Source of the DNA: a virus
Lineage: Duplodnaviria; Caudoviricetes
DNA: 34,159 nt
Direction: 5' to 3' (one strand)
IMG/VR virus record: IMGVR_UViG_3300033420_000024
Span: 1 to 34,159 of that record
Made by a program: the position numbers and the translations under genes. This document shows positions 1,101-34,159 of the stretch, in pieces. Each line of letters opens with the position of its first letter. The first letter of the stretch is position 1. The notes beneath the pieces are model-generated. The model was not told the origin of the DNA, searched no databases, and worked only from the letters and a program-made list of their open reading frames with translations.

Positions 1101-1390
1101 TATTCCTCTCCGTTTGCAAGTGAATCAATTCGTTTCTGTGATAAGTTCTCTGCTTTTTTAAGTTCCGTCTTGATTAATCCCTCAAGAACCTCAGCGGGAT
1201 TACCGAAAACCTTTAGCATAAGCTCTTTCTGCTCAGCCGCGGTTAGGCTATCGAATTTATCAAGGTCAATCTTGTCAAAAACCCGCATAAAAGTCTTGAA
1301 TATCTTTTTGTTATCATAAATCTTATTGATTTTTTCTTTTATGATTTTTTTGTTTTCGAATATTTCTTTAGCAAATTCTTTATGGTTCAT
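1100..1390 (-). CDS. Hypothetical protein (96 aa)
   Basis: ORF coupled to both neighbours by ATGA and TAATG overlaps. Confidence 0.7.
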   Translation of the reverse strand: MNHKEFAKEIFENKKIIKEKINKIYDNKKIFKTFMRVFDKIDLDKFDSLTAAEQKELMLKVFGNPAEVLEGLIKTELKKAENLSQKRIDSLANGEE

Positions 1391-2814
1391 AGGTAATTAT
1401 CCATTACTTTTAAAATTTCACTATGCCTATTTACGGTCAACGAATCTGTTAGCTGTAAATTAAATTCATTTGAAAGGCTTTGTATTAGAATTTCTTTTGG
1501 TAATTGTTTTGATTTAATGCCTTTGGCGTATTTGTAGTGATAAGACATGTTAGAGTCCTCACCTACGGCTTTATATCTGTTTTTCACTGTTCTTACAACT
1601 GCGAATAATTTATATTTTTCTCCAAAGTAATCTTTAACCAAATTAGCAAACTCTTCTTTTCCGTGGAACTTCTGAGCCGTGAATAAACCCGATCGGAATT
1701 TCACTGAAACATTATTTTCATCATAATATTCGTGGTAAACTCTTTTGCTTGAAACTCTTTTTAATTTTAGTTTGCTGCTATATTCGTCTTTGAACCGGCA
1801 TGATAAATAAATTGTTCCGTTTGGCTTTAACAGTGCGTTACAGCAATTCAAGACATCGGATTCAATTTCCTTGTTTACTATCGAATTTAAAACCGAATCC
1901 AAAATAATTACATCGTATAATCCATTTTTCTGAATATCTCTGATTACATCATCTATGTTTGCTCTGATTTTATTGACATCGTATTTACTGCCTTTTACTA
2001 TAAAAAACTCTATCCCAAATATTTTATATCCCTCTTTTTTCAGTTTGTTCACATATCCAAACTTTCCGGCGCCAAAATCAAGAATTCTCTGCTTTTTATT
2101 GATTTCCGGTAAAATTAAACCTTCGTAAAGTTTTGAATGGAAATTAAATTCTCCATCAACCATCCTATTCATTTGACACATAAACTGGTTACTGCTTTTC
2201 AGTGGAATATTTTCGTAATTATAATATCCATAATCCTGCTTAAGGTACTTATCTAATAATGGCTTTTTTGAATCACTTATTACGTAAACCATGGGATTTA
2301 GCTTTAGGATATAGCAACAAATGAGATAATTCATCATGGAATATACTTGACCTGTATTAAGGACCAGCGGAGTATCGAATAATCCATATTTAACAAATAA
2401 ATCCAATATATTTTTTCGGTCAACCGCATTCTCGAAAGATCCGATTTTCCCCTTGATTTCAATATCCGAGTATTGGATTTGCTGAAATCCCTCATTACGA
2501 TAAGTCTTTTTTATCCTAACCGGAAATTCCATTAGATCAAGGCTGTTGTGTAAAAGGTTAAACCTAACTTCATCCTTTATGCTAATTTTTTCCGATCTAT
2601 AAACCGCGCAAGTTTCGAAAGTTCCAAGGGAACTCATCGCCTTATGCCTCTGGTGCCCGGCAATCAGAGTATTCCTGTTAAGCAGTAACGGCCTTACTAA
2701 CCCTATCCCCTTGATACTCTCGGCAAGCATTTGAGCGCTTTCGGGTTTTATTTTTCTCGGGTTGTATTCAGCCGGCTTGATTTTCGATATTTCATAGTTT
2801 TCTATAAAATTCAT
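1387..2814 (-). CDS. ParB/Srx-like domain fused to a class I SAM-dependent methyltransferase
   Basis: IKPAEYNPRKI and LIAGHQR (ParB-N); ILDFGAG and YDVIILDSVLN (Rossmann methyltransferase). Confidence 0.8.
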   Translation of the reverse strand: MNFIENYEISKIKPAEYNPRKIKPESAQMLAESIKGIGLVRPLLLNRNTLIAGHQRHKAMSSLGTFETCAVYRSEKISIKDEVRFNLLHNSLDLMEFPVRIKKTYRNEGFQQIQYSDIEIKGKIGSFENAVDRKNILDLFVKYGLFDTPLVLNTGQVYSMMNYLICCYILKLNPMVYVISDSKKPLLDKYLKQDYGYYNYENIPLKSSNQFMCQMNRMVDGEFNFHSKLYEGLILPEINKKQRILDFGAGKFGYVNKLKKEGYKIFGIEFFIVKGSKYDVNKIRANIDDVIRDIQKNGLYDVIILDSVLNSIVNKEIESDVLNCCNALLKPNGTIYLSCRFKDEYSSKLKLKRVSSKRVYHEYYDENNVSVKFRSGLFTAQKFHGKEEFANLVKDYFGEKYKLFAVVRTVKNRYKAVGEDSNMSYHYKYAKGIKSKQLPKEILIQSLSNEFNLQLTDSLTVNRHSEILKVMDNYL

Positions 2815-3464
2815 TGCATCATTTCGCTTTTTACAAATCCGTAAAGAGTCCCGTTATCTTCAAGATATACTTTGATCTTCTTTTCGAAAAACTCCGCCTC
2901 CTCCTCTGTAAGATTTATACGATATCCCTTATACTTTATTGAATCGATTGATGAGTTTTTTGCCCCTTCGATCTGGTCAAATGTATTCTTAATATCTAAA
3001 TCGTCCTTAAGTTCGATTAGTCCCACGTCTAAGCCCACCAATTGCAACTCTTGGTCTAACAACTCAAGGCGATCATCAAGCTGGTATATTTTCAGATGCT
3101 CTCTAAGAGCTTCTTTGTTTGTTTCCGTGAAATGACTAAGATAAACTAATACCAACTCGGCCGCTTCTTGCATATCCTTACAGTCTACCCATACGGCTGA
3201 TAGCTTTTCCGGAACTTTTACGCCCTCATCATGCAGATCCTTCAACACCTCAAAGAATTTGACGCCTTCGAGTAAATAGAGCTTACCTTTATTTTCGTAA
3301 ACATGAATCACCTTAAAAAAGCTATGCCTCAGAAATGCGTTTTTAATCTTTGTGTAACCCCCAGGGATATACTCCTCGAGTTTATCATTCTGTACAGGAA
3401 TAAGTTCTTTCCAGCTTACCTGGTCGTATTTCACAATTTTATTCTTTATGGCTGTTTTTGTCAT
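2811..3464 (-). CDS. Degenerate ParB/Srx-like protein
   Basis: ParB-like layout (IKNAFLRHSF..IHV....LYLLEG) without the GHxR motif; ATGA-coupled to the ParB-methyltransferase. Confidence 0.55.
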   Translation of the reverse strand: MTKTAIKNKIVKYDQVSWKELIPVQNDKLEEYIPGGYTKIKNAFLRHSFFKVIHVYENKGKLYLLEGVKFFEVLKDLHDEGVKVPEKLSAVWVDCKDMQEAAELVLVYLSHFTETNKEALREHLKIYQLDDRLELLDQELQLVGLDVGLIELKDDLDIKNTFDQIEGAKNSSIDSIKYKGYRINLTEEEAEFFEKKIKVYLEDNGTLYGFVKSEMMQ

Positions 3465-3888: not shown

Positions 3889-6000
3889 TTACCCTATCGG
3901 CTCCGTCTTTGTGCTGCTAAAGGTAATCGGCAATCCATAATAAGCTATTCCGATATTGAATAATTTATTCCCCTTGCGATCGACATCATGCCAACGTTTC
4001 TCTAAGTCATCCCATGTGATTTCACGGTTCCTAAGGGAACTCGGATCTTTCAGCTTCACAGCTTCGTTATTATATCCATAAGCAGTAACATAATGGCCAT
4101 CTTCCCACTCATTCGAATAATCGTAATCTTTTACGGTGTCAAAATGCCATGCCTGAATATCCAAAATAACAGGTATGCCTTTATCCAGATATTCCTTTAC
4201 TTCATAAGTTGACATGGATTTTAAGTCAACCGTATAGCCGTATTTTTCTAATACAGTTTTTATGTTTTCCGGCTCAGTGCCCCACTCGGGAGTTGAACCT
4301 AAATCTTTGGCCAGTTCGTCAGGGTTAGGCTCTTCACCTATCATGGCTAAAGCTGTAATTCCAACCGAATCCCCGCAGTCCCAGCAATAAAATTGCCTAT
4401 CAGTCGGCATATCTATATCTCTGCCGGCTCCGGGAACGAATAACTCCGTTTGACCACCCTTTCCCTTGCCGCCTCCGCTTACCTCCGCTACATCATCCGA
4501 CAATATCGAATCGGTTATGTTCCCAAAAACAGATTGGAATTTTTTGTTTATTTTGTAATTCTCATTCAGTCTATCCTGAGCCTCTTCGTCACTTGATATA
4601 TCAGGATTGTCTTCTCTGATTAAATCCAGGTAACTTATTGTATTGTGCTGTAACTTCATATCCCTTTCAGTCTTTGTTTCTTCCATGGTTCGAGGGAATG
4701 AAGGCTCTTTATAGTCGATAAACAGTTCGGCATCATCGGGGATGTCGTCAACATCCGGCTCTTTTTTACCTAATGACCTTACCAGATTAAATAGATCGTT
4801 TTCGAATTTAGCTAATATCGGAATCTGTTCTTTCCTTAATTCCATCAGACCCTGACTTTCGGCAACAATACCGAAACCAGAGGTATATCCCCTTTCGAGT
4901 ACAATCGAATTTAGATCAACTCCGGCATCGCTTAGCGCGTTTTTTGCGTCCCAGTCACTTTCTGTCCTTACTACACTCATATCAGATTTGAGACTTACAA
5001 ATTCGATACTTGCGTCTTTACCACTTATGGTGCTTGGTTTTAGACTCAGCACAAGGTCTGGAGATATTCTTATTCCTTGCCCGGAGTATTGTTCATTCAT
5101 TATTACTTCCTGTCCATCCGAGGCTGTTATTCTATCCCCCGGAAGTTCGGCTCTTTGGTTCCCATTTACCGCTTTACCCAGATCAATATTTTTTGCAACC
5201 AGTATACCCCCAACTGAATAAGGGATAAGATAATTTGCATAGGTGCGATTCGTAGAAGCTGCCAAAAATATCTCAACCATCCATTCAAGACCATATCCCT
5301 GAGAATCGTAATCGTCTTTATTCATTCTTAAGGGCAAGAACGGAATCACCCCATCATAGGGATTTAATCTATTTGGATTGCCTTCAACCGGCATACTAAT
5401 CAACTCTTGATCAATAACGTAGTGATCTTTTTCAGTCCAAACAATTACGGATTTTTTATATTCCTGCGGTGAAACTTCATCGATATTGAGTATCAACAAT
5501 GCGTCTATTCTGTTTTTATCTTTTGCTTTCGGGATGATAAGATACTCGAACGGTAAATAAGTCTTGATGAAAAGCTTCCCTTCCTCAAAGTAAGGTCCAA
5601 CAATTACGGTGTTGTAAAAAGTCGCTAACCTGTGATTTTTTTTCATCTCACCATTAAGATCGACTTCCTTCACAATTTTGTTGTAAGCATCGGTCAAACC
5701 GGGATCTATTTCACATTTTCCGTTTTTGACATATCTTATAGGTGAATCCTTGTATAAGCTGCAAAGCCTGCCTAAGGTCTTTGGGATTTTATTTATGTAA
5801 GGGTAACTTTTTATTTTCCTCTTTATTTCGCGTCTATCATGTATCACTGAACGCCATAAGCGCTCTTGAATCTGAGCCTTTATCGCGTCTTTGTTATTAT
5901 TATACCAGGCATAAGATTCGAGACAGCTATAAATCCTGCTGTCTTTTTTGACATTCAGCAACGTCTTTGCTCTGTCCTTTATTATTTCGTAGTTTGCCAT
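3889..6000 (-). CDS. Portal protein with C-terminal C39-like cysteine peptidase
   Basis: Immediately follows terL; about 500-aa portal-sized N-terminal part with an SPP1-portal-like end. The last ~175 aa carry QxxxxxCG, GT, HYV and DPS motifs. Confidence 0.8.
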   Translation of the reverse strand: MANYEIIKDRAKTLLNVKKDSRIYSCLESYAWYNNNKDAIKAQIQERLWRSVIHDRREIKRKIKSYPYINKIPKTLGRLCSLYKDSPIRYVKNGKCEIDPGLTDAYNKIVKEVDLNGEMKKNHRLATFYNTVIVGPYFEEGKLFIKTYLPFEYLIIPKAKDKNRIDALLILNIDEVSPQEYKKSVIVWTEKDHYVIDQELISMPVEGNPNRLNPYDGVIPFLPLRMNKDDYDSQGYGLEWMVEIFLAASTNRTYANYLIPYSVGGILVAKNIDLGKAVNGNQRAELPGDRITASDGQEVIMNEQYSGQGIRISPDLVLSLKPSTISGKDASIEFVSLKSDMSVVRTESDWDAKNALSDAGVDLNSIVLERGYTSGFGIVAESQGLMELRKEQIPILAKFENDLFNLVRSLGKKEPDVDDIPDDAELFIDYKEPSFPRTMEETKTERDMKLQHNTISYLDLIREDNPDISSDEEAQDRLNENYKINKKFQSVFGNITDSILSDDVAEVSGGGKGKGGQTELFVPGAGRDIDMPTDRQFYCWDCGDSVGITALAMIGEEPNPDELAKDLGSTPEWGTEPENIKTVLEKYGYTVDLKSMSTYEVKEYLDKGIPVILDIQAWHFDTVKDYDYSNEWEDGHYVTAYGYNNEAVKLKDPSSLRNREITWDDLEKRWHDVDRKGNKLFNIGIAYYGLPITFSSTKTEPIG

Positions 6001-8237: not shown

Positions 8238-9290
8238 TCAATTCGTGTTATCGAGGAGCAACTTTTCTTTTTCTATGTTTAAATTATTCACAACGCCCTG
8301 CTGGTCATTTGTCCGTAAGTGTGAATATATTTCAGTAGTTTTGGTGTTCGAGTGCCCCAGAAGTTTGGAAACCGTGAAGAATGGGACGTTTTCCATCAGA
8401 AGATTTGAGGCAAAGCTATGTCTTAAGGTGTGAAACGTAATGGAGGTATCTTTCCCGAATACTTTCCTTGCTAATTTTTTGTATACAAGGAATAGGTGCC
8501 CAGTCCACTTTTTGCCCTTATAGGTAAAAACAAACCTGTTTGATTTTTTCAAATACCTGTATTTTAATATTGCTATTACATCATCCGAAAGTGGTATTAC
8601 TCTGATTTCTCCGCTTTTCGTTTGATGTCCTACGTTATTTAATGTTATAATTTTTCTTTCGATATTGACCTTATCCCATGTCAGATTGGTTAACTCACCC
8701 CGCCTCATACCGGTCATAAAGGCAACAATAATGGCATCCTGTAAATCTTTCTCTTTGCAGGCTTTCAGCAACATTAGGAGCTGCTCTTTTGTGAGATACC
8801 CCTTTTCGATTTTTGGAGTCTTTATTTTTATTAACCCGAATGAAAAGTTTTTGTTTATGTAGTTTTTTTCTTTTGCGTACTCGATTGCGTGTTTGATCAT
8901 AATCATTTTTTGCTTTATCGTTCCCGGCTTGTAGTTCCTATTAAAAAGTTCTGAATTGTATTCCTCAACATGTTCCGGCTTAAGTTTGTCCATATTGATA
9001 GAATTGCCTAAGAACTTACCAAAATCCTTTATCAGAGCTTTATAGGATTTTGCAAGACTCTTAGTAAGATACAGCGCTTTGTAAGACGATATCTTGTCTG
9101 CAAGTTCTGATACTGAAATTGATTTCACACTGCCCGAAAACCTGTTTTCAATATCTTTTTTGAATTTAGAATATACCTCATGCGCCTTAACCGAGTTTTT
9201 TGTTTTTGTAGATACTTTTGTCCTCTTGCCGGTTACATGGTGAAGATAGTAAATGTTCCAATAACCATTTTTTTCTTTCCTTAAAAACAT
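8238..9290 (-). CDS. int: Tyrosine integrase with N-terminal arm-binding-like domain
   Basis: TGMRRGE, TKSG, FHTLRHS, LLGH, TEIYSH catalytic set; N-terminal YWNIYY...GKRTKVSTKT beta domain; AGGAGG ribosome-binding site. Confidence 0.95.
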   Translation of the reverse strand: MFLRKEKNGYWNIYYLHHVTGKRTKVSTKTKNSVKAHEVYSKFKKDIENRFSGSVKSISVSELADKISSYKALYLTKSLAKSYKALIKDFGKFLGNSINMDKLKPEHVEEYNSELFNRNYKPGTIKQKMIMIKHAIEYAKEKNYINKNFSFGLIKIKTPKIEKGYLTKEQLLMLLKACKEKDLQDAIIVAFMTGMRRGELTNLTWDKVNIERKIITLNNVGHQTKSGEIRVIPLSDDVIAILKYRYLKKSNRFVFTYKGKKWTGHLFLVYKKLARKVFGKDTSITFHTLRHSFASNLLMENVPFFTVSKLLGHSNTKTTEIYSHLRTNDQQGVVNNLNIEKEKLLLDNTN

Positions 9291-23912: not shown

Positions 23913-23978
23913 GGTAGAATATAATCCTTGAATAATATTTACCCTTTATTATGACTTGTTGTATTGTTATATTGTTGT
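23891..23978. promoter_or_regulatory. Two copies of TTATATTGTTGT (candidate operators) and a rightward extended -10
   Basis: Exact 12-mers at 23891-23902 and 23967-23978; TGtTATATT at 23965-23973, 7 nt before ATG 23980. Confidence 0.5.
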
Positions 23979-23979
23979 C

Positions 23980-24354
23980 ATGAAATCATATAAGAAAATA
24001 GGCGTTAGACTCGATGAGGTTTCTTTCAGAAAAGTCAAAGAATACTCCATAATGAACGATATCAGTATGTCGGAAATTATTTGCACTTTGTTGAATAAAA
24101 CCCCCCTAATCCTTAAGACAAGGCAAATTGGAGAAGTGATAAATGAAGCTAAAGAGAAAGGCAATGTTAATATCAAAATGCTTGCCTTATTCCCCAGCGA
24201 TAAAATTATTTTGAAACTTAAAAATATGTGTCTAAAAAATAACACCTCATTCTCCGAAATAGTCCGCAACTTAATCCATGAGGCTAATTTCAGTGAATTT
24301 GATTTTAAGACCAAGGGTCAGAAAATCACAGAGAGTAAGAAAAAGAAGAAATAA
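23980..24354 (+). CDS. Tandem ribbon-helix-helix regulator, candidate repressor
   Basis: Two RHH-like units: IGVRLDEVSFRKVKEYSIMNDISMSEIICTLL and LALFPSDKIILKLKNMCLKNNTSFSEIVRNLI; divergent from the early operon. Confidence 0.7.
   Translation: MKSYKKIGVRLDEVSFRKVKEYSIMNDISMSEIICTLLNKTPLILKTRQIGEVINEAKEKGNVNIKMLALFPSDKIILKLKNMCLKNNTSFSEIVRNLIHEANFSEFDFKTKGQKITESKKKKK
24270..24354 (+). repeat. Direct repeat copy 1 (3' end of the RHH gene)
   Basis: 24270-24341 is identical to 25118-25189 (72 bp); similarity continues to the stop codon. Confidence 0.95.
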
Positions 24355-24413: not shown

Positions 24414-25106
24414 GTGAAACGAGCGATTTATCCGTTGATATTTATCTTAATCTTGTTGTGTGCTTCATGTAGTAAAGATAGCAACCCTGTTGAATCAACC
24501 CCAAAAAGCGATGGCACAGTAACCGATATTGACGGCAATATTTATAATTATATTACCATAGGCAATCAAACGTGGATGCAAGAAAATTTAAAAACAACAA
24601 AATATAGAAACGGCGATGCGTTACCAAACGTAACTACGAATGGGGATTGGATAGTGCTTAAAACCGGCACATACTGTGATTACAACAACAATCCTACAAA
24701 CGCTGAAATATATGGAAGGCTATACAACTGGTATGCGGTGAATGATACGAGAGGTCTTGCCCCTCTTGGTTGGCATGTAGCAAGCGATTCTGAGTGGACA
24801 AAGCTAATTAATTATTTGGGTGGTGAGTCAGTAGCAGGAAGCAAATTAAAAAAGCTTCATAATTCTTACTGGCAAACTTCCGATATAGTTGTGAGTAACA
24901 GTAGCGGGTTCGAGGCTATACCCAGCGGTTTTCGTAATATCGACGGTTCTTTTGTGTGGCTTGGCTATACTACCTATTGGTGGACTTCGACAGTAGATAA
25001 CTTTAGTGCGGCATGGAATAGGCATTTGCATTACGATTTTGAAAAAATATTCAGGGATAGTAATGAAAAAAACGGTGGTTTTTCGGTTCGATGTATAAAG
25101 GATTAG
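24414..25106 (+). CDS. Fibrobacter succinogenes major paralogous domain (Fib_succ_major) lipoprotein
   Basis: Lipobox-like CASC; VTDIDGNIY..ITIGNQTWMQENL, YGRLYNWYA, PLGWHV..DSEW, GFSVRCIKD. Confidence 0.93.
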   Translation: MKRAIYPLIFILILLCASCSKDSNPVESTPKSDGTVTDIDGNIYNYITIGNQTWMQENLKTTKYRNGDALPNVTTNGDWIVLKTGTYCDYNNNPTNAEIYGRLYNWYAVNDTRGLAPLGWHVASDSEWTKLINYLGGESVAGSKLKKLHNSYWQTSDIVVSNSSGFEAIPSGFRNIDGSFVWLGYTTYWWTSTVDNFSAAWNRHLHYDFEKIFRDSNEKNGGFSVRCIKD

Positions 25107-26619: not shown

Positions 26620-27447
26620 ATGAAGAAACATTTATTGTTATATTTAGCCTCAGCGTTCTTTCTGATCGCCTGCTCAGCTTCACACGAGCCAAATGGAGGC
26701 GATAAAATCCCAGAGGCGATTCAGGATACTACCCTTCCCTACAATAGCGTTCATTTATCGTTAGGGTTACCGGTTGATGCCGATTCAACCGATGAATATG
26801 TTTTAGTACGCCCTCAGTATGCCCTTTCTTATAATAAAAATCTGAATGTTTCCAACTGGGTGTCATGGGAGTTGAACAGTAATTGGTTTGGTGATGTTGA
26901 TCGATATTCAGGTAATTTCATTCAGGACCCACTATTGCCGGAAGGATATTATAGGGTAACTCACAATGATTATACAAATAGCGGTTATGACCGCGGACAT
27001 ATGGTCCGGAGTGAAGAGAGAACCAGAACAGACGAAGATAATAAAAGCACTTTCTATACAACAAACATATTACCACAAATGCCGGATCTAAATCAAGGGG
27101 TTTGGCTTAATTTGGAATATCATTGTGAAGACCTTTGCAAACAGCAAAATAAAGAATTATTTGTTTTAGCTGGCGGAGTGTTTTACACAAAAAATAAATT
27201 AAAAAACGTTGTAACGGTTCCGGATTCCTGCTGGAAAATAATTATAATTTTGAATAAAGGTCAAGGAATAGGTGATATTAACGGCAATACGGAAGTTATC
27301 GCCGTGATGATGCCGAATATTGCGGGAATCCGGAAAGATACTTGGGATAAATACAAAACAACTATCCGAAGGATCGAAGGATCGACCGGATATAATTTCT
27401 TATCAAGAGTGAGTAAGTCAATTCAAGACGTGATAGAGAATAAATAA
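26620..27447 (+). CDS. DNA/RNA non-specific endonuclease lipoprotein (NucA/Serratia family)
   Basis: Lipobox LIAC; YALSYN, NWVSW, SGYDRGH, TNILPQ..DLNQGVW..LE; candidate promoter TTTACT-17-TATATT upstream. Confidence 0.93.
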   Translation: MKKHLLLYLASAFFLIACSASHEPNGGDKIPEAIQDTTLPYNSVHLSLGLPVDADSTDEYVLVRPQYALSYNKNLNVSNWVSWELNSNWFGDVDRYSGNFIQDPLLPEGYYRVTHNDYTNSGYDRGHMVRSEERTRTDEDNKSTFYTTNILPQMPDLNQGVWLNLEYHCEDLCKQQNKELFVLAGGVFYTKNKLKNVVTVPDSCWKIIIILNKGQGIGDINGNTEVIAVMMPNIAGIRKDTWDKYKTTIRRIEGSTGYNFLSRVSKSIQDVIENK

Positions 27448-27505: not shown

Positions 27506-27760
27506 TTACTTTGTTCCGATTTTGTAGTTCTCTTTTGTCAGAGCCATATTCTTTGCCATAGCCCCCTGTATAACACCGGCAGCTGTTAATATGCCCAGTG
27601 CTATATTTGCCCCAAATGAAACCCAGGGGTTTATGGTCCCTACAAGCGGACTTGCTGCAGCATTGAGTAGGACTAACCCTATGCCTCCCAAAACCTCTTT
27701 ACGCTTCCACCAAGTTTTAGGCTTAGGCACTGGCGGGTTCTGTTGTGTTTGTTCCGGCAT
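27506..27760 (-). CDS. Putative holin
   Basis: 84 aa, KTWWKRK followed by two hydrophobic segments, near the endolysin. Confidence 0.55.
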   Translation of the reverse strand: MPEQTQQNPPVPKPKTWWKRKEVLGGIGLVLLNAAASPLVGTINPWVSFGANIALGILTAAGVIQGAMAKNMALTKENYKIGTK

Positions 27761-28271
27761 CCGATACCTTGCTTTTTACAAAATATTTAAAGAAATAGTT
27801 CTTTAGTTCGACAGCTAATTTAAAGCCGTCAATTGACATTTCGAGAGTTTTCCCTTCATCTAATCCCGTGCCTCTTAGAGCCGAAATAATCTCGTTCCTT
27901 TCATCATCGGTGATGGTATCCTTAAACTCACTCGGTAAGTGAGGGATTGAACCAATGAAACCAGGTAAATTGATCACGGGTTTTAAAAAGTTTCCTGCAT
28001 CGGCAAAGTTGACCTTACCGTCATTCTTTAGCGATTCCTCAATAGCATCTCCTATGCTTCCAAGAAATTCAACCGCCTTAATAATGTTCTCCACTCCGAA
28101 TTCGTTTTTATCCGGCATAATGACCCCCTGTAATTTGTTTGGTATATTGTTAATTTGTTTTTTACTTTTGTTTGTTTGGAGAAATTCCATTTTCGGATTT
28201 ACCTTTTGGAGTTCCTCTTTTTCCTGCTCAATATTATCCTCAATTTCCTGCAAGTTGCATAATTCACACAT
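27723..28271 (-). CDS. Hypothetical lysis-region protein; second in-frame start at 28118
   Basis: GGAGGT before ATG 28271 and AGGGGG before ATG 28118 (MPDKNEFG). Confidence 0.65.
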   Translation of the reverse strand: MCELCNLQEIEDNIEQEKEELQKVNPKMEFLQTNKSKKQINNIPNKLQGVIMPDKNEFGVENIIKAVEFLGSIGDAIEESLKNDGKVNFADAGNFLKPVINLPGFIGSIPHLPSEFKDTITDDERNEIISALRGTGLDEGKTLEMSIDGFKLAVELKNYFFKYFVKSKVSDAGTNTTEPASA

Positions 28272-28272
28272 A

Positions 28273-28545
28273 TTATTTTTTTACCTCCGTTTTCTGATAA
28301 AAACAACCTGTGATATAATCAATTGAGATAAACACAATAGCGGACGCCATACCCGCGGGCGTTGCGGTTACTATCCGTATTGTGATTCCGGTTGCAATAT
28401 TTCCTACTATTGCAAGCCAGTTTACTTTTTCTTTTTCCCTCTCGGTTTCCGGCAGTTCGCCATCTTTGAGAGAATAATAAGCAGTCCCGCAATTGAACGT
28501 GGTTGCCATAATAATAATTAGGGCAAACATTTTGATAAATTTCAT
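28273..28545 (-). CDS. Putative lipoprotein with hydrophobic C-terminal segments
   Basis: Signal-like N-terminus ending TFNCG; ATGA-coupled to the endolysin. Confidence 0.6.
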   Translation of the reverse strand: MKFIKMFALIIIMATTFNCGTAYYSLKDGELPETEREKEKVNWLAIVGNIATGITIRIVTATPAGMASAIVFISIDYITGCFYQKTEVKK

Positions 28546-29027
28546 TTTGTTATTACCGGTTTAGTGAATAATTTATATTCTTTCCTTCGTCTGAATAGAA
28601 GTCCGTTCAATACTTTTAGCAGTAATGTTTTTGGGTCTCTTGCTTTGCTGTATTGCTCCCAGTAGGCTTGTCTCCATTCCGGATCTGTTACTCTAATCCC
28701 GTCATTTATATTTTTTATTAATCCAAGATTCTCAAAGTTTCTAATATTGAAGGCAAGGCTTACAAGAGCGGAGAATTGATTTTCATTTAATTCGACCTTC
28801 ACAGCTTTTCGGACTTTATTCTCAGCGTCTTTGCAGTCATTCCTTAAGATATCCAATGCCGCGCTTTCGGTGATACCCTGCATTAGGTACTCTTCACCGA
28901 GTAAAATATTATGACCGAAACCGATGAAATAACCCCCACCCTCAAGGCGTCTTTTCGGCTTCAAGGTTAGTCCTTCACGTTCTTTGATTATTTCTAAGCC
29001 TTCGTTATTTATTCTGTAATCGTTCAT
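28542..29027 (-). CDS. GH24-family lysozyme (endolysin)
   Basis: GLEIIKEREG, IGFGH, LNENQFSALVSLAFNI, LNGLLFRRRKEYKLF. Confidence 0.9.
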   Translation of the reverse strand: MNDYRINNEGLEIIKEREGLTLKPKRRLEGGGYFIGFGHNILLGEEYLMQGITESAALDILRNDCKDAENKVRKAVKVELNENQFSALVSLAFNIRNFENLGLIKNINDGIRVTDPEWRQAYWEQYSKARDPKTLLLKVLNGLLFRRRKEYKLFTKPVITK

Positions 29028-29336: not shown

Positions 29337-29506
29337 TTCGATTCCCCTTTAAATTCTTTCCACCTCTTTAATGCTTGCTCAAATTTGAGCTTTGCGATTT
29401 CAAGATTTTCAATTGCAAGATCATCTCCGCCTATACGTTCTTTTCTGATAATCGAATTTAGTAACTCAATATGTGATTCCAGCGTTTCGATTCTCTGATT
29501 GCTCAT
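29333..29506 (-). CDS. 57-aa helical protein (not in the ORF track)
   Basis: GGAGG site; ATGA overlaps on both sides; MSNQRIETLESH...FKGESK. Confidence 0.65.
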   Translation of the reverse strand: MSNQRIETLESHIELLNSIIRKERIGGDDLAIENLEIAKLKFEQALKRWKEFKGESK

Positions 29507-29727
29507 TTTCCCTCCGAATATTCAATTGAATCTAATACAAACTTGCGGGACGAATCAAGTACACAAATGAGCCTTGTATTCTTTGTAATTAGCACTTGCC
29601 CGCCGGTATATTTTATTTTCCGGTTCTGGCTCATAGAGCTTTGAATCGCAAACATTACAATAATAATGCAGGCGATTAAATAAATCGCCGGGACTAAACA
29701 GCCCGGATAACCATGATATTTTTTCAT
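29503..29727 (-). CDS. Small protein with N-terminal membrane segment
   Basis: AGGAGG site; hydrophobic residues ~11-28. Confidence 0.65.
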   Translation of the reverse strand: MKKYHGYPGCLVPAIYLIACIIIVMFAIQSSMSQNRKIKYTGGQVLITKNTRLICVLDSSRKFVLDSIEYSEGK

Positions 29728-30189
29728 TTATCCTCCTACTGAAACATCTATTTTTGGATCGCTAACCTGATCCCTGAGAGATTGCTTATAAACCAAATGC
29801 TCAATAAATTTGGCTCTATCCATTTTAATTTTATCTTTTGGGATAGCACCCTCTTTGTCCATTTCTAACTGCTCAAAATATCTTAGCGTTTTATAGTCAA
29901 GGCTTGCGATTTCCTGCCTTAACTGTTCATCTTTTATTTTTGTTTCTTCCTCGGCTTTTTCGGCGGCAAGTATCTGGTCTTTGTTTGCATCTTCGGTTAT
30001 TTTGTCATCCAAAATTACTACAAACCTACTGCCGGATATTTTTTCAGGTGTATTATTTCTTATCCAGTCCTGATAAGGTTTGTAATTTTGCGGGTCATCG
30101 ATAAACCTTGCAAATATTCCAAGCCCATTATATTCGTATACCCTGTAAGTATTTTGTGAAGTATAATAGTGTTTATAAATTTCATTCAT
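29728..30189 (-). CDS. Putative tail-fibre assembly/chaperone-like protein
   Basis: YKPYQDW..NNTP and EIASLDYKTLR...KQSLRDQ resemble fibre-assembly proteins; follows the fibre genes. Confidence 0.5.
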   Translation of the reverse strand: MNEIYKHYYTSQNTYRVYEYNGLGIFARFIDDPQNYKPYQDWIRNNTPEKISGSRFVVILDDKITEDANKDQILAAEKAEEETKIKDEQLRQEIASLDYKTLRYFEQLEMDKEGAIPKDKIKMDRAKFIEHLVYKQSLRDQVSDPKIDVSVGG

Positions 30190-30218
30190 AAATTCCTCTT
30201 ATTATAATATTTTTTCTA

Positions 30219-30350
30219 CTAAGCATAATAACTGTCTTCTTCTACATCGTTAAAAGATTGCCCGTCTCTAAATAATATTATTTTTTCAACTTCTATATTA
30301 TCGGTATCACTAATAGAGCTATTATCTGGTAAATCTTTTTCACTAATCAT
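30219..30350 (-). CDS. 43-aa acidic protein (not in the ORF track)
   Basis: AGGAG site; MISEKDLPDNSSISDTDNIEVEKIILFRDGQSFNDVEEDSYYA. Confidence 0.5.
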   Translation of the reverse strand: MISEKDLPDNSSISDTDNIEVEKIILFRDGQSFNDVEEDSYYA

Positions 30351-30361
30351 TTTTAATTCTC

Positions 30362-31093
30362 CTAATATGGTTTGTTTGGTGGTCTAAAATTACTGGTCCA
30401 GCGGGCTATGCCTTTAGAAATACGAAGTTCTTGCATATAACAATTCGACCAATTAGAATAAGCTGATCTACCACCTATCTGAGACACAAAAGAAGTATCA
30501 TATGCTAGAGAAGTTGAACTATAAGAAGAAGTGTAGCTTAGAGAGCCTCCAATATAAATTTTAAAATATCCCGATTCTCTAATTATGGCAACATGGTACC
30601 ATTGTCCTACGGACAAACTCCCAGCAGAACCACCATTGACAATATCCCAAGATACATCATTAGACGAACTATAAAAATTCGTTGCTCCCGTAGTTGCACT
30701 TGTATAAAATATTAAAGCAGATATACCCTGATTATTAAGTAAAGATACAATCATATTTAATGCAGATAGACTATTTAAATACACCAAAAAGTCTACTGTG
30801 AGATCACCTGTACCAAAATTAAACAAACTGTTCATAGATATATTAAAATAATCATTAGAGCCGTCAAAATATATACTACTGTTGCTAAATTTTTGTTGTG
30901 TAGTAGATATAGCAGCACCGTTATACGCTGTTATCGTATTTGTGTAATAACTTATATCGGGGATTGCTGTTGACCCGCTTTGACCGTTTCCTCTTATGTG
31001 TAATACAGTATATCTATCCGGCAAACTTCTCTGAAACTTAAACTGCCCAGAAAGAGAGATAGAAGCCAACAATAATATTAGTAGTTTCTTCAT
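30362..31093 (-). CDS. LamG/ConA-like lectin domain protein with Sec signal peptide
   Basis: KFSNSSIYFDGSNDY, FGTGDLTVDF, QWYHVAIIR, ELRISKGIARWTSNF; N-terminus MKKLLILLLASISLSG-Q. Confidence 0.88.
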   Translation of the reverse strand: MKKLLILLLASISLSGQFKFQRSLPDRYTVLHIRGNGQSGSTAIPDISYYTNTITAYNGAAISTTQQKFSNSSIYFDGSNDYFNISMNSLFNFGTGDLTVDFLVYLNSLSALNMIVSLLNNQGISALIFYTSATTGATNFYSSSNDVSWDIVNGGSAGSLSVGQWYHVAIIRESGYFKIYIGGSLSYTSSYSSTSLAYDTSFVSQIGGRSAYSNWSNCYMQELRISKGIARWTSNFRPPNKPY

Positions 31094-31096
31094 ATA

Positions 31097-33028
31097 TTAC
31101 TCCAACACAAACCAAAATGATAAAGTTAAGTTTCTTGCATCAGGTGTTGTATCTGCCCTATCTACACGCAAATCAATTCCATTTCCATAAGAAACTTTGT
31201 AATTAATCGGATTGATATAATAGGCAGAGCTATACATCCAAGTACCATTTCCGGAAGTCATATTTAGCCCCTTGTAGCCGATTAGAGTTTCAGCACTTTT
31301 CCAGATGTTTAGCTTCGTTCCTGCTGTAACATCTATCACCCTGGTAACCGTGGCAAATTGAACCAAATAGGCATCCGAGTTACCCCATTTAAACTCTGCT
31401 CCGGCGTGTAGGTATATCAAGGAATCAAAAAAACCTCCGCTTGTTGGATAGTTACTCCAATACTCTGTAAGTCCGAAATCTGCCTTTACAACGTTCTCGG
31501 CGGGACCAAGAAACAAGGAATCCACACCGGAATAAAAAGCCGCTCCACTCAAAATGCAGGTGTCATTTGTTACTCCAGTTTTTACCTGTGTTATTAAGGC
31601 ATATCTAAAAACAGAATCCACATCTTTGTATTTTACAGGTAATCCCGCCCTGAATCCGGTATTATGAGCAACAAAAACTAATGTATCAGATAACCGAGTT
31701 GAAGCATAGTAAGTCCAAGGCGAATAAGAAGAGCCAGTTCCGCCAGTGCCATTTGCAACGGATGTTATCCGTCCATCTGTGCCAACTGTTATATTAGAAT
31801 TTGTATAACTCCCTGCGGTTGCGGTGTTCTTTTTTGCAAGGGTGGAAGTAGTATCAGCAATTCCCCATTTTCCATTTATCCTTGCGGCGATTGTATTCGT
31901 ATCAGAAGGTATCAAATAAGTTCCAGAAGCCTGTTTGCCATTAGTAAGCGTTCTAACTTGTTGAAGTGAATCTTGCGCCCCAGTGATACCCGAAAAAAGA
32001 TGTCCGTGTGTTCTTTGAGCTTTCGCCAAAAGTGAATCGCTTAAATTTGTAATTGTTGACTGAGCTTGATTGTGAGATATAGGCGCATAAGCCCCTAACT
32101 CCCAAGGCATAACAACGCTTCCAGAATCGGTTTTTTTGTCAATTCTATTCGACAAAGTAATCGTATCTGATCTTGTCAATTTCAAAGTTTGCCAGCTTAA
32201 ATCATCCGGCAAATTATGAGTATTATTCGTGTCTGAGGGTATCAGATAAGTTCCGGCTCTCTGAAAATTATTGATAGAATCTTTGAAGGTTATTGCAGTT
32301 ATATATTTTGTGTTGCTATCTGCGATACTTATCTTTGTATCAATTCTGTTTGATAGGGAGGTCGTATCTATCCCACCCCCACCGGTTAAGTCTGCTGCCC
32401 ATTGCTGAGTTGTCCCTACCATTTTCCACACATAACCATCAGTGCCATTAGCCATCTTAGGTTGATATTTTATATCAGAATAAGTCCTGACATTTCCTGT
32501 GTCCGAAGCTATCAGATACGAACCCTTTGCTTGATACAAATTATTACTATATGTTCTGGCATTCGTTGTGTCAGTCCCATAAACCGATTTATCTAATTTA
32601 GTATTTATCAAAGTCCATTTGCCTGTGGTATCAGAGGCTATAAGGTATGTCCCTTTTGCCTGATACAATCCATTAGAATAATATCGAGCATTGGCAGTAT
32701 CGCTATAATACTTCCACAAAGTTAGCCTGTTTGCTTTTACAGTGTCTAATCTATAAAGAGTTGCAAACTTTGTGCTATCGGCAGAGCTGCCTGAACCAGC
32801 ATTAGCCAATACAGTACTGTCTACGTAATGCTTGCTTGCTACTCCGGGTTTGGAAGTAGTGTCTATTGCTCCAGCTGTAATCCCAGACACCGCGCCCGTA
32901 ACATAGTTTATCACAAAAGGTTTAGTTGCGAGCTTTGTCAGCGTGTCTATATCAACCCACTGTACTCTTTGCACTGTTTGAGAAAAAGCGAAACTTGTAA
33001 AAAACAATAATATCAGTATTTTTTTCAT
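31097..33028 (-). CDS. Tail-fibre-like repetitive protein with Sec signal peptide
   Basis: Thr/Ser/Gly-rich; repeated G(T/S)YLI(A/P)SDT; TAGSYTNSNITVGTDGRITS fibre-like motif; N-terminus MKKILILLFFTSFAFS-Q. Confidence 0.7.
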   Translation of the reverse strand: MKKILILLFFTSFAFSQTVQRVQWVDIDTLTKLATKPFVINYVTGAVSGITAGAIDTTSKPGVASKHYVDSTVLANAGSGSSADSTKFATLYRLDTVKANRLTLWKYYSDTANARYYSNGLYQAKGTYLIASDTTGKWTLINTKLDKSVYGTDTTNARTYSNNLYQAKGSYLIASDTGNVRTYSDIKYQPKMANGTDGYVWKMVGTTQQWAADLTGGGGIDTTSLSNRIDTKISIADSNTKYITAITFKDSINNFQRAGTYLIPSDTNNTHNLPDDLSWQTLKLTRSDTITLSNRIDKKTDSGSVVMPWELGAYAPISHNQAQSTITNLSDSLLAKAQRTHGHLFSGITGAQDSLQQVRTLTNGKQASGTYLIPSDTNTIAARINGKWGIADTTSTLAKKNTATAGSYTNSNITVGTDGRITSVANGTGGTGSSYSPWTYYASTRLSDTLVFVAHNTGFRAGLPVKYKDVDSVFRYALITQVKTGVTNDTCILSGAAFYSGVDSLFLGPAENVVKADFGLTEYWSNYPTSGGFFDSLIYLHAGAEFKWGNSDAYLVQFATVTRVIDVTAGTKLNIWKSAETLIGYKGLNMTSGNGTWMYSSAYYINPINYKVSYGNGIDLRVDRADTTPDARNLTLSFWFVLE

Positions 33029-33469
33029 TTAATTCTCCCAACTGTAACGGATAACATTGCTTGTGTCTTTGATTGAGCCGATGACATATATCCAATTTGT
33101 ATTGGAACATTTTACCTTGTAAATATCACCTGCCTTCATAGGAAATCCGTTTTCTTTTGTTGTACCCGCAACCCCCACGTATACAGTCCCCCAATATTGA
33201 GGCATAACCGTAATTGTTAATCTTTTGCAGGTGTTGCTTGCTAATTGAACCGCCGAAGTATCAATTGCCATCGAGCCATTTCCGGCTATTGAGTCCATAG
33301 CCATTTCGTCAGCTTCTATATTAGCCATTTCGCTTCTTAATGTCTCGGCAAGTGCAGTTAAATCCGTGTTAGTCGCAAATGCAGAATAATCCGGTATCGT
33401 TACAACCAACTTTTTACTTTGTCCAAAAACAAAAAGAGGCAAAAATAAAAACAAAATTATTTTCTTCAT
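33029..33469 (-). CDS. Secreted small beta-rich protein
   Basis: MKKIILFLFLPLFVFG-Q; C-terminal domain ending IRYSWEN. Confidence 0.75.
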   Translation of the reverse strand: MKKIILFLFLPLFVFGQSKKLVVTIPDYSAFATNTDLTALAETLRSEMANIEADEMAMDSIAGNGSMAIDTSAVQLASNTCKRLTITVMPQYWGTVYVGVAGTTKENGFPMKAGDIYKVKCSNTNWIYVIGSIKDTSNVIRYSWEN

Positions 33470-33532
33470 AAAGATAAATCACATTTTTTAAATTGTTCTC
33501 TTGTCAAAATATTTATTACGTGTTTTAAAGTT

Positions 33533-33883
33533 TTAGCGTTCCCAAAAATATCTATAGATATATCCCGTTGCATGCGAACTTATTCTTATACCGGAAACAT
33601 TATCGCAAGGTACCCTCAAACTTTGACTTTTTAAAATCCACATTCCAGTTGTACGCGGATAGTTGTTTGTTGAGATATACAAGGTATCAGTTCCGAGACC
33701 TGCGTCCCCAATCACGGTTATAAATCTTGCGTTAACGTTTTCGGGTAATCTGATAACAGAATCGGCTTTTAGGTATCTTTTCACAGAATCGGGAAAGATT
33801 GTCCTTGTTGGATTCCACATAGTTTGTGAAAACGCGGATACGCCAACAAATGCAAGTAGTAAAAATAATAATGTCTTTTTCAT
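33533..33883 (-). CDS. Secreted small beta-rich protein, probable paralogue of 33029-33469
   Basis: MKKTLLFLLLAFVGVSAFS-Q; ends YRYFWER. Confidence 0.75.
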   Translation of the reverse strand: MKKTLLFLLLAFVGVSAFSQTMWNPTRTIFPDSVKRYLKADSVIRLPENVNARFITVIGDAGLGTDTLYISTNNYPRTTGMWILKSQSLRVPCDNVSGIRISSHATGYIYRYFWER

Positions 33884-33895
33884 AGTTTCCCCCTG

Positions 33896-34159
33896 TTATT
33901 CTTTTTCTTCGTTAATATGTTTTTCTAACTTCTTATTTAGCTCTTTCATTGAGATTCCCAGATTCTCTATTTTTTCAAGAATAGTTTCCAAATCCTTTTT
34001 AAATCCGATGAACTCCTCAGTCATTTTATCAACTTTAGCGGTTTCTGCTTTTGCCATTTCTATCTCTGATATTTTTTTTTCGTTATTCTTTTCTATGTCG
34101 GATATTTTTCTATCGTAGCATTCTTTTAAATCGGATATTTTCTTCTCAAATTCCAACAC
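33896..34159 (-). CDS. Partial coiled-coil protein (5' end outside the window)
   Basis: Frame runs off the window edge; heptad pattern. Confidence 0.65.
   Translation of the reverse strand: MLEFEKKISDLKECYDRKISDIEKNNEKKISEIEMAKAETAKVDKMTEEFIGFKKDLETILEKIENLGISMKELNKKLEKHINEEKE

What the first reader, a model, noticed from the sequence alone, without database searches (positions are those of the whole stretch)
30362..33883. Four consecutive tail-region genes all carry Sec signal peptides followed by Gln
Seen: MKKTLLFLLLAFVGVSAFS|Q, MKKIILFLFLPLFVFG|Q, MKKILILLFFTSFAFS|Q and MKKLLILLLASISLSG|Q. The products look like a fibre, a LamG tip and two small beta proteins, and sit where tail fibres normally sit, upstream of a chaperone-like gene and lysis. 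Established: tailed virions assemble in the cytoplasm, and Gln at +1 is typical of Bacteroidota signal peptidase I substrates (pyroglutamate formation). Inference: this is an exported fibre module, either added to virions in the periplasm or at lysis, or displayed by the lysogen as an adhesin or receptor decoy.
Basis: partly seen in the sequence, partly recalled or inferred. Interest (0 to 1): 0.8.

Follow-up and report, generated by a model that had tools for sequence, protein, structure and literature searches.

The report
Exported, sugar-tagged phage fibre kit
An uncultured long-tailed phage begins its fibre, a lectin-like tip and several small partner proteins with predicted bacterial export signals, and the fibre carries five times the chance number of the Bacteroidota sugar-attachment motif, so these virus parts are likely finished and sugar-coated outside the cytoplasm and would join the particle only when the cell bursts.

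Summary
Observation confirmed and extended. The four genes carry Sec-type leaders ending at Gln (judged by eye and a home-made rule; no SignalP). So do a fifth gene (29503-29727) and a sixth wedged between major capsid and head-tail genes on an overlapping contig, which shows a long-tailed phage.

The fibre has 19 Bacteroidota O-glycosylation motifs D(S/T)(A/L/V/I/M/T) against 3.9 expected. All 25 aligned D-S/T sites are kept in a 71%-identical relative, with 5 S/T swaps. The six head sites are nearly absent from 48 signal-less homologues, some of them ordinary tail fibres. Core virion genes show no excess.

A terminally repeated relative with no integrase found has leaders on all its fibre-like genes. 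Leader-bearing proteins of cultured phage phi18:3 are annotated as virion proteins by MS/MS.

Best reading (0.6): a periplasm-matured, host-glycosylated appendage added at lysis. Glycosylation and virion binding are inferred, not shown; part of the tail region is unsequenced. Ten literature searches found no such route for tailed phages. This scan noted the phenomenon before on other DNA (22 findings).

The parts
33533..33883 (-). Small exported beta-sandwich protein, 116 aa; predicted leader 33827-33883 (19 aa) then Gln; 3 O-glycosylation motifs vs 0.39 expected
   Evidence: low-confidence model (pLDDT 53) matches jelly-rolls: STIV A223 Z 7.9, Ena 7a02 Z 7.1; nearest Atlas clusters viral
33029..33469 (-). 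Small exported protein, 146 aa: predicted leader 33422-33469 (16 aa), Gln, short helix, C-terminal jelly-roll; candidate fibre adaptor or cement
   Evidence: model pLDDT 79.5, core about 95; PM2 spike P1 Z 8.8, Ena 7a02 Z 7.7; Foldseek top hit Ena3A E 2.5e-3; 37 viral-protein matches at E<=1e-3, uncharacterised or unnamed; family with conserved leader+Gln
31097..33028 (-). Fibre, 643 aa: predicted leader 32981-33028 (16 aa), Gln, repeat-rich shaft, C-terminal head (about residues 435-643); 19 D(S/T)(A/L/V/I/M/T) motifs vs 3.9 expected
30362..31093 (-). LamG/concanavalin-A-like protein, 243 aa; predicted leader 31046-31093 (16 aa) then Gln; no O-glycosylation motif; first 29 residues nearly fixed, lectin domain variable; candidate binding tip
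   Evidence: PF13385; PHROG baseplate/structural LamG hits; 26 of first 29 residues identical to L002 homologue vs 39% overall; 312 phage records match
29728..30189 (-). 153-aa leader-less protein that travels with the module; role unknown (candidate cytoplasmic docking partner; chaperone label unsupported)
   Evidence: counterpart at the same place in L010; no family hit
29503..29727 (-).
   Evidence: same-slot gene in L010 4079-4309 also has leader+Gln and 2 motifs vs 0.1 expected; only the leader regions align
28542..29027 (-). Endolysin; lysis cassette (about 27506-29027) lies directly downstream on the same strand
   Evidence: PF00959, phrog_7
33896..34159 (-). 5'-truncated coiled-coil gene upstream of the module; a small N-terminally hydrophobic coiled-coil gene holds the same slot in L011

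Best explanation
The genes encode a fibre, a LamG tip and small jelly-roll partners that are likely exported by the host Sec system, likely O-glycosylated in the periplasm, and would dock on finished virions at lysis. Steps: (1) co-transcription with late and lysis genes (inferred from shared strand and 0-3 nt gene spacing); (2) export and signal peptidase I cleavage before Gln, then pyroglutamate formation (predicted from leaders and PMC5837995); (3) glycan transfer to D-S/T sites by the Bacteroidota general O-glycosylation system (motif excess and conservation shown; glycan inferred); (4) folding and storage as soluble periplasmic proteins, as no anchor or onward secretion signal was found (inferred); (5) binding to heads or tails when holin and endolysin mix the compartments, with the jelly-rolls as adaptors and LamG as an unglycosylated binding tip (inferred). 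The same route would serve the leader-bearing 161-aa protein encoded right after the major capsid gene.
For: MOTIF EXCESS: fibre 19 vs 3.9 (0 of 2000 shuffles), 26 of 42 Asp followed by Ser/Thr. Head alone 5 vs 0.9 (p 0.0004). E-, N- and reversed-motif controls are flat. Six late leader proteins 28 vs 6.4, and 9 vs 2.4 without the fibre; nine core virion proteins 6 vs 8.3; three opposite-strand exported morons 2 vs 2.1. CONSERVATION: 25 of 25 aligned D-S/T sites kept in the L002 fibre, with 5 S/T swaps, against 83 of 114 other S/T and 11 of 15 other Asp. LINK TO THE LEADER: among 150 fibre homologues, 29 leader-positive have 222 vs 82 motifs, 121 leader-negative 386 vs 391 (Mann-Whitney p 5e-6). 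The six head sites occur in 3,0,0,0,2,0 of 48 signal-less heads, so the fold does not need them. VIRION ROLE: signal-less head homologues include PHROG tail fibres and minor tail proteins and a gene in a tail module. A leader+Gln gene with 4 motifs vs 0.6 sits 5 nt after the major capsid gene. Relative G002 (terminal repeats, no PF00589 or PF07508 match) has seven leader genes (46 vs 13.5 motifs), two of them between capsid and adaptor genes, and leader-less core genes. phi18:3 gp085-087 have leader+Gln and are annotated as structural by MS/MS. PATHWAY: the motif is modified only in non-cytoplasmic proteins (PMC12871550).
Against: No protein, glycan or virion was observed. The window phage has an integrase and exported morons, one with leader+Gln inside the tail region on the opposite strand. 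Only about 42 kb is in hand and the distal tail region is missing, so an ordinary leader-less fibre may exist there. The motif also runs above chance in the other 50 window ORFs (31 vs 19.2). In 228 kb of a Kapaibacterium genome the excess was weak: 55 vs 37.7 in leader proteins, 94 vs 75.9 in others. Glycosylation in that lineage is not shown, and the host is only hinted at by one moron. The head sites are kept only by four close kin (58-77% identity); more distant leader-bearing heads lack them, so this may be one evolutionary event. Shaft motifs sit in repeats and could be helix caps. The phi18:3 proteins are not motif-rich (1 vs about 3 each) and not homologous. CheckV rates G002 only 55% complete.
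Confidence: 0.6

Rival explanations
1. The module is exported and glycosylated but never joins the virion: it works for the lysogen or infected cell as a periplasmic or released decoy, adhesin or superinfection blocker derived from a tail fibre.
For: Integrase and exported morons in this phage. The module is shared (fibre 71% identical) with B1/L010, whose flanking genes differ and look short-tailed, while the terminase finds no match there, so it moves as a cassette. No tail-attachment domain in the fibre N-terminus.
Against: The morons here lie on the opposite strand and have no motif excess; the module is in line with late and lysis genes. No lipobox, anchor or T9SS-type hit. G002 has the related fibre and no integrase match. 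The leader recurs in the slot after the major capsid gene in two unlike phages.
Confidence: 0.18
2. The proteins are exported virion parts, but D-S/T is a structural motif (helix cap or turn in the shaft repeats) and is not glycosylated; export serves folding or timing only.
For: Many sites recur inside shaft repeats. phi18:3 leader-bearing virion proteins lack the excess. The excess is weak in the sampled candidate host lineage.
Against: The excess holds in the non-repetitive head, where 48 signal-less homologues do without the sites. N-S/T and reversed controls are flat. S/T swaps keep the hydroxyl. The excess extends to the small proteins.
Confidence: 0.12
3. The small jelly-rolls polymerise into a free pilus-like filament tipped by the fibre and LamG, like Bacillus endospore appendages (L-ENA: ring subunit, anchor, trimeric tip).
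For: Ena proteins rank high for both small proteins (7a02 Z 7.1 and 7.7; Ena3A is the top Foldseek hit, E 2.5e-3; profile hit to 8pdz, E 0.28). L-ENA is a three-gene self-assembling kit (PMC11362473 abstract).
Against: These Z-scores are at the level of a common fold and tie with viral spike, turret and cupin hits. Much stronger matches are viral proteins (E to 1.7e-7). L-ENA fibres are disulfide cross-linked (section heading); these subunits have only 1-2 Cys.
Confidence: 0.07
4. The leaders are not functional, or shorter leader-less forms are made from internal starts and assemble in the cytoplasm as usual.
For: Database gene calls P0002 and P0003 start at internal Met in the two small genes. 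The 146-aa start lacks a Shine-Dalgarno-like motif.
Against: Leaders of unrelated sequence are kept across homologues. The fibre has no internal Met before residue 192. The motif excess tracks the leader.
Confidence: 0.03

Closest known systems
Ordinary tail fibres and minor tail proteins of Caudoviricetes (PHROG 6518/36601/5510; vir525 gp29; crAss001 gp22 and head fibres gp21/gp29, PMC10172136)
   Same: The same C-terminal head domain occurs on signal-less fibres; position beside tail and lysis genes; LamG partner common in phages.
   Different: Leader+Gln replaces any detectable N-terminal attachment domain; dense D-S/T motifs; the crAss001 paper has 0 occurrences of 'signal peptide' or 'glycosyl' in its main text.
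Cellulophaga phage phi18:3 gp085-gp087 (GenBank KC821620)
   Same: Three adjacent leader+Gln proteins upstream of a lysis-type gene, annotated as structural by MS/MS.
   Different: No sequence similarity to any protein here and no motif excess; the annotation lines seen do not mention export; the source paper was not read.
Bacteroidota general protein O-glycosylation and Q-rule substrates (PMC12871550, PMC5837995)
   Same: Leader, Gln at +1, motif D(S/T)(A/L/V/I/M/T) in a non-cytoplasmic protein.
   Different: The substrates here are phage late proteins; 'phage' occurs 0 times in either main text; motif density far above the sampled host background.
Single jelly-roll spike, turret and cement proteins (PM2 P1, STIV A223, PRD1 P5 N-terminus, KHP40 cement) and Bacillus Ena pilins
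   Same: Predicted fold of both small proteins.
   Different: Z 6-9 only, identity under 20%; exported; family membership not shown.
Modified virions of mycobacteriophages (phage-encoded glycosyltransferases, PMC11256854 listing; host MepM methylation of a tail protein, PMC13445384)
   Same: Post-translational modification of tailed-phage structural proteins, in one case by a host enzyme.
   Different: No export route appears in what I read of them; no glycosyltransferase was found among the 51 window ORFs scanned.
Filamentous phage coat proteins (recalled; PMC4823517 listing)
   Same: Phage structural proteins that use host Sec export.
   Different: Those virions assemble at the membrane without lysis; this phage has an HK97-type head, terminase, tape measure and endolysin.

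Membership tests
Sec/SPase I substrate obeying the Bacteroidota Q-rule | Basic n-region, hydrophobic core, small residue at -1, Gln at +1 | tested here: met
   home-made rule and inspection, no SignalP
Sec/SPase I substrate obeying the Bacteroidota Q-rule | Leader conserved across homologues | tested here: met
   (fibre, LamG, 146-aa family); the 116-aa protein has no independent homologue
Sec/SPase I substrate obeying the Bacteroidota Q-rule | Actual cleavage and pyroglutamate | not testable with these tools
   needs N-terminal proteomics
Bacteroidota general O-glycoprotein | D(S/T)(A/L/V/I/M/T) motif in an exported protein, above chance and conserved | tested here: met
   (fibre, 116-aa, post-capsid protein); LamG has none
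Bacteroidota general O-glycoprotein | Host has the glycosylation system | tested here: inconclusive
   host hint Kapaibacterium/Ignavibacteriae from one moron, 11 loci; weak excess in 228 kb
Bacteroidota general O-glycoprotein | Glycan detected | not testable with these tools
   needs glycoproteomics
Phage tail or head fibre | C-terminal domain shared with annotated tail fibres | tested here: met
   (P0025, P0086, P0045, P0056, P0062, P0068 of 26 scanned)
Phage tail or head fibre | N-terminal virion-attachment domain | tested here: inconclusive
   no PHROG hit on the fibre; Pfam only a weak tail repeat PF12789, E 0.002
Phage tail or head fibre | Trimeric fibre present in virions | not testable with these tools
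LamG / concanavalin-A-like lectin domain | PF13385 above cut-off | tested here: met
   58 bits vs 27.6
Ena pilin (DUF3992) or capsid cement | Jelly-roll core | tested here: met
Ena pilin (DUF3992) or capsid cement | Family-level sequence or clearly top-ranked structural match | tested here: inconclusive
   E 0.28 profile; Foldseek E 2.5e-3; Z tied with unrelated folds
Lysogenic-conversion surface protein (lipoprotein, autotransporter, T9SS cargo) | Lipobox, membrane anchor or C-terminal sorting domain | tested here: not met
   no Cys after the leader, no second hydrophobic segment, no Pfam or NCBIfam hit
Tail fibre assembly chaperone (PF16778) for 29728-30189 | Profile match | tested here: not met
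   no match at E<=1 in own genome

The most novel reading that the evidence does not exclude
Tailed phages of Bacteroidota-type hosts run a second, periplasmic assembly line: capsid decorations, fibre adaptors, fibres and lectin tips are Sec-exported, glycosylated by the host's general O-glycosylation system, and snapped onto long- or short-tailed virions at lysis, giving a virion dressed in the glycan of its last host. Here the motifs were gained on a fibre head that elsewhere is made in the cytoplasm.
Probability: 0.5. Interest if true: 0.88.

Novelty: categorically new. Interest (0 to 1): 0.72.

Why it matters
Tailed-phage particles are held to be built wholly in the cytoplasm (recalled textbook view). 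A fibre and capsid-side proteins routed through Sec and shaped by selection for periplasmic glycosylation would add an assembly stage at lysis. It would also add a host-imprinted glycan coat that could change stability, adsorption and host range from one host to the next. Glycosylation and glutaminyl-cyclase genes would become host factors for phage infectivity, and annotation pipelines may be misfiling such genes as morons. The parts are of known kinds; the route is what I could not find in print. It is directly testable in cultured phi18:3 for export and in a glycosylating Bacteroidota lab strain for the glycan.

Tried and rejected
(1) Extending the window to the right to see the distal tail: an exact pattern scan of viral contigs found nothing. 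The metagenome scan returned the window's own contig and two relatives. A contig in run X1 runs 974 nt beyond the end but its letters are not given. The genome-contig scan with the fibre alignment found no relative.

(2) Reading the head genes of B1: L010 is not held as a record and the window terminase does not match B1. Its short tail is therefore inferred only from three ejection-like genes without family hits.

(3) Homotrimer prediction of the 146-aa protein: no verdict (score 0.28).

(4) No RNA holder listed, so there are no expression data.

(5) The fibre head profile has no PDB sequence match at E<=5; the fibre and the post-capsid protein were not folded.

(6) The 116-aa and 146-aa proteins do not align beyond their leaders. 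The post-capsid protein does not match its slot-mate in L004 or any cultured phage. The 146-aa protein has no match in the phage collection, in viral contigs or in G002-G004.

(7) Terminase and capsid searches of the genome index gave no aligned match. Cluster look-ups for 10 fibre homologues gave no organism names.

(8) Promoter scan: 26 sites vs 28 expected, uninformative.

(9) A diversifying fibre head was considered from alleles in run X1 but not supported: 19 synonymous vs 5 non-synonymous codons, none altering a D-S/T site, from a partial list.

(10) Ten paper searches gave no report of Sec-exported or host-O-glycosylated structural proteins of tailed phages, judged from listings. The library lacks most subscription papers, and no supplements were read.
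Full report
OBSERVATION. The window is a 34,159-base linear virus record, G+C 36.8%. On the minus strand its right end reads: truncated coiled-coil gene, 116 aa, 146 aa, 643 aa, 243 aa, 153 aa, 74 aa, two short ORFs, endolysin and holin/spanin-like genes. The four leaders are as quoted. The 146-aa, fibre and LamG genes are 0 and 3 nt apart. A home-made rule (net positive charge in the first 7 residues, hydrophobic 8-mer) flags 8 of 55 ORFs and none of the packaging or replication genes. No trained predictor was available.

MORE LEADERS. The 74-aa gene at 29503-29727 also has a leader ending at Gln, as does its slot-mate in relative L010. Locus L006 overlaps the window over 16,000 bases with 11 differences and continues it: scaffold-like gene, major capsid protein (phrog_247, E 2e-34), then 5 nt later a 161-aa gene with leader+Gln, then genes I read by position and size as adaptor, terminator, tail tube and chaperone (no family hits), and a tape measure (PF20155, E 1e-5, below the curated cut-off). 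With phrog_26 this makes a long-tailed phage. About 42 kb is in hand; the distal tail is missing.

RELATIVES. B1/L010 carries the module in the same order (small beta protein, fibre 71% identical, LamG 39%, 149-aa leader-less gene, small leader gene, lysis), followed by three ejection-like genes, so it is probably short-tailed (inference). L011 shows coiled-coil gene, small leader protein, leader fibre. The fibre leaders differ in sequence but end at Gln. Of 18 fetched homologues of the 146-aa protein, 12 begin with leader+Gln, 2 from an internal Met, 1 is truncated and 3 lack one. L003-L005 share only shaft repeats and also sit among leader-bearing fibre-like genes.

WHY EXPORT: THE GLYCOSYLATION MOTIF. 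I noted this, before consulting earlier findings. Bacteroidota O-glycosylate non-cytoplasmic proteins at D-S/T followed by A/L/V/I/M/T (PMC12871550, passages and section 7). The fibre has 19 such motifs against 3.9 (0 of 2000 shuffles), and 26 of its 42 Asp precede Ser/Thr; the B1 fibre has 26 vs 4.4. The non-repetitive head has 5 vs 0.9, while Glu-, Asn- and reversed-motif controls are flat. All 25 alignable D-S/T sites (of 26) are kept in B1, five through S/T swaps, against 83 of 114 other Ser/Thr and 11 of 15 other Asp. Pooled, the six late leader proteins have 28 vs 6.4 (9 vs 2.4 without the fibre), nine core virion proteins 6 vs 8.3, and three exported opposite-strand morons 2 vs 2.1. LamG has none, which is not significant alone.

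NATURAL EXPERIMENT. The best 150 of 243 homologues split by the same rule into 29 with a leader (222 vs 82 motifs; 17 of 29 at least twofold) and 121 without (386 vs 391; 9 of 121), p 5e-6. The second group still holds truncated members of the exported lineage and a few missed leaders. For the 59 hits that I picked by hand as matching the head, I set 11 aside as leader-bearing or close kin. The six head sites occur in 3, 0, 0, 0, 2, 0 of the other 48, and in 4, 3, 5, 4, 6, 4 of the 11, mainly the four closest. The fold therefore does not need the sites, but their gain may be a single event, and distant leader-bearing heads lack them.

ARE THESE VIRION PARTS? Six of 24 signal-less head homologues scanned have PHROG tail hits, P0025 with a tail-fibre N-terminus at E 5e-19; another lies in the tail module of vir525. 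G002, a 43.9-kb record with terminal repeats and terminase next to portal across the junction, has seven leader genes (46 vs 13.5 motifs): two between capsid and adaptor genes, three before the nozzle-like gene and two before lysis. Its nine core genes have no leader (19 vs 15.0). No tyrosine integrase or serine recombinase was found, and I saw no leader-less fibre-like gene among ATG-started ORFs of 80 aa or more. CheckV calls it 55% complete, and an ORF crossing the 40-kb cut was not examined. Following a lead from earlier findings, I checked Cellulophaga phage phi18:3: 3 of 11 MS/MS-annotated structural proteins translated (gp085-087) carry leader+Gln, but they are motif-poor and unrelated to ours. 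So leader-bearing proteins do co-purify with a cultured tailed phage; glycosylation is a separate claim.

FOLDS. The 146-aa protein (22-row alignment, pLDDT 79.5) is a helix plus jelly-roll. Its best matches are PM2 spike P1 (Z 8.8, rmsd 2.4, 81 aligned), Ena 7a02 (Z 7.7) and Ena3A (Foldseek E 2.5e-3), and 37 viral proteins, uncharacterised or unnamed, match at E<=1e-3. The 116-aa single-sequence model is weak (pLDDT 53) and matches STIV A223 (Z 7.9) and Ena (Z 7.1). These show a common fold, not a family. The LamG protein keeps 26 of its first 29 residues while the domain drifts, which suggests a docking stub on an exchangeable tip (inference).

HOST. The best relatives of the moron nuclease are Ca. 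Kapaibacterium and Ignavibacteriae (61-67%), then others including Chloroherpeton. Ignavibacterium album has a Q-value of 77% (PMC5837995, passages). In 228 kb of one Kapaibacterium genome, 13 of 30 leader proteins had Gln at +1, but the motif excess was weak (1.46-fold vs 1.24-fold). Host and host glycosylation remain inferred.

MECHANISM. Shown: leaders, their conservation, motif excess and conservation, gene slots, folds. Inferred: export, cleavage, glycosylation, periplasmic storage, docking at lysis. Spontaneous docking on finished particles has precedent in P22 tailspike, lambda gpD and T4 Hoc/Soc (recalled, no call). Because the kit is shared by a long-tailed and a probably short-tailed phage, lacks a known tail-attachment domain and comes with jelly-roll partners, a head or collar site is as plausible as the tail tip. 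The leader-less 153-aa companion is unexplained and could be the cytoplasmic docking site.

AGAINST. No direct protein data; a temperate-looking phage with exported morons, one of them with leader+Gln inside the tail region; a 1.6-fold background of the motif in other window ORFs; missing distal tail; phi18:3 proteins not motif-rich.

LITERATURE AND NOVELTY. Seen: passages of PMC12871550, PMC5837995, PMC10172136 and PMC13445384; abstract and outline of PMC11362473; search listings for the rest; no supplements, which for virion proteomes could bear on the claim. Ten searches showed no description of this route for tailed phages. Filamentous phages use Sec, and mycobacteriophage virions are modified by phage or host enzymes. 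This scan has recorded the phenomenon on other DNA (22 findings hold all the search words; capsid-slot cases) but nothing on this genome or sequence. This locus adds a long-tailed phage with leaders on both capsid-slot and fibre genes, and site-level evidence that the motifs were gained on a head domain otherwise made without a leader.

VERDICT. Real feature; export very likely; host glycosylation likely; virion attachment at lysis about 0.6. Interest 0.72.

Noticed in passing
L006 18656-19141 (+), outside the window: 161-aa gene 5 nt after the major capsid gene with leader+Gln and 4 glycosylation motifs vs 0.6 expected; candidate exported capsid decoration; no family hit, not folded.
   Followed up: partly
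window 3889-6000 (-): 703-aa gene in the portal slot after the terminase, with a C-terminal Peptidase C39-like domain (PF13529, E 4e-12): an apparent portal-peptidase fusion; the portal part has no family hit.
   Followed up: no
window 1387-3464 (-): ParB-N plus methyltransferase gene (475 aa) and a 217-aa partner sit between portal and head-morphogenesis genes; possible DNA-modification cassette.
   Followed up: no
window 8238-9290 (-): Tyrosine integrase lies between SSB and the terminase genes, in line with them, not beside the repressor-like gene at 23956-24354.
   Followed up: no
window 24414-25106, 26620-27447 (+) and L008 1888-2391: Three exported morons on the opposite strand: a FISUMP lipoprotein, a non-specific nuclease lipoprotein closest to Kapaibacterium/Ignavibacteriae, and a leader+Gln protein between tail chaperone and tape measure; none is motif-rich.
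   Followed up: partly
window 30148-31466, run X1: Contig depth drops over LamG (11.4 vs 17-20) and second alleles appear in the fibre head and at the fibre-LamG junction, as if a second LamG variant circulates in the population.
   Followed up: partly
G002 (L038-L040): 43.9-kb terminally repeated phage with seven leader genes in three clusters and no integrase match; a cleaner model for the route.
   Followed up: yes
L003 7513-20287, L005 8261-20522: Larger phages with at least four consecutive leader-bearing fibre-like genes of 800-1300 aa; the first two are motif-rich (20-22 vs about 6; 14 vs 5.5).
   Followed up: no
L010 5800-12743: In B1 the lysis genes sit between the exported module and three ejection-like genes; the contig is binned in a genome that a source labels Actinomycetota, which fits poorly with Gln-rule leaders.
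   Followed up: partly
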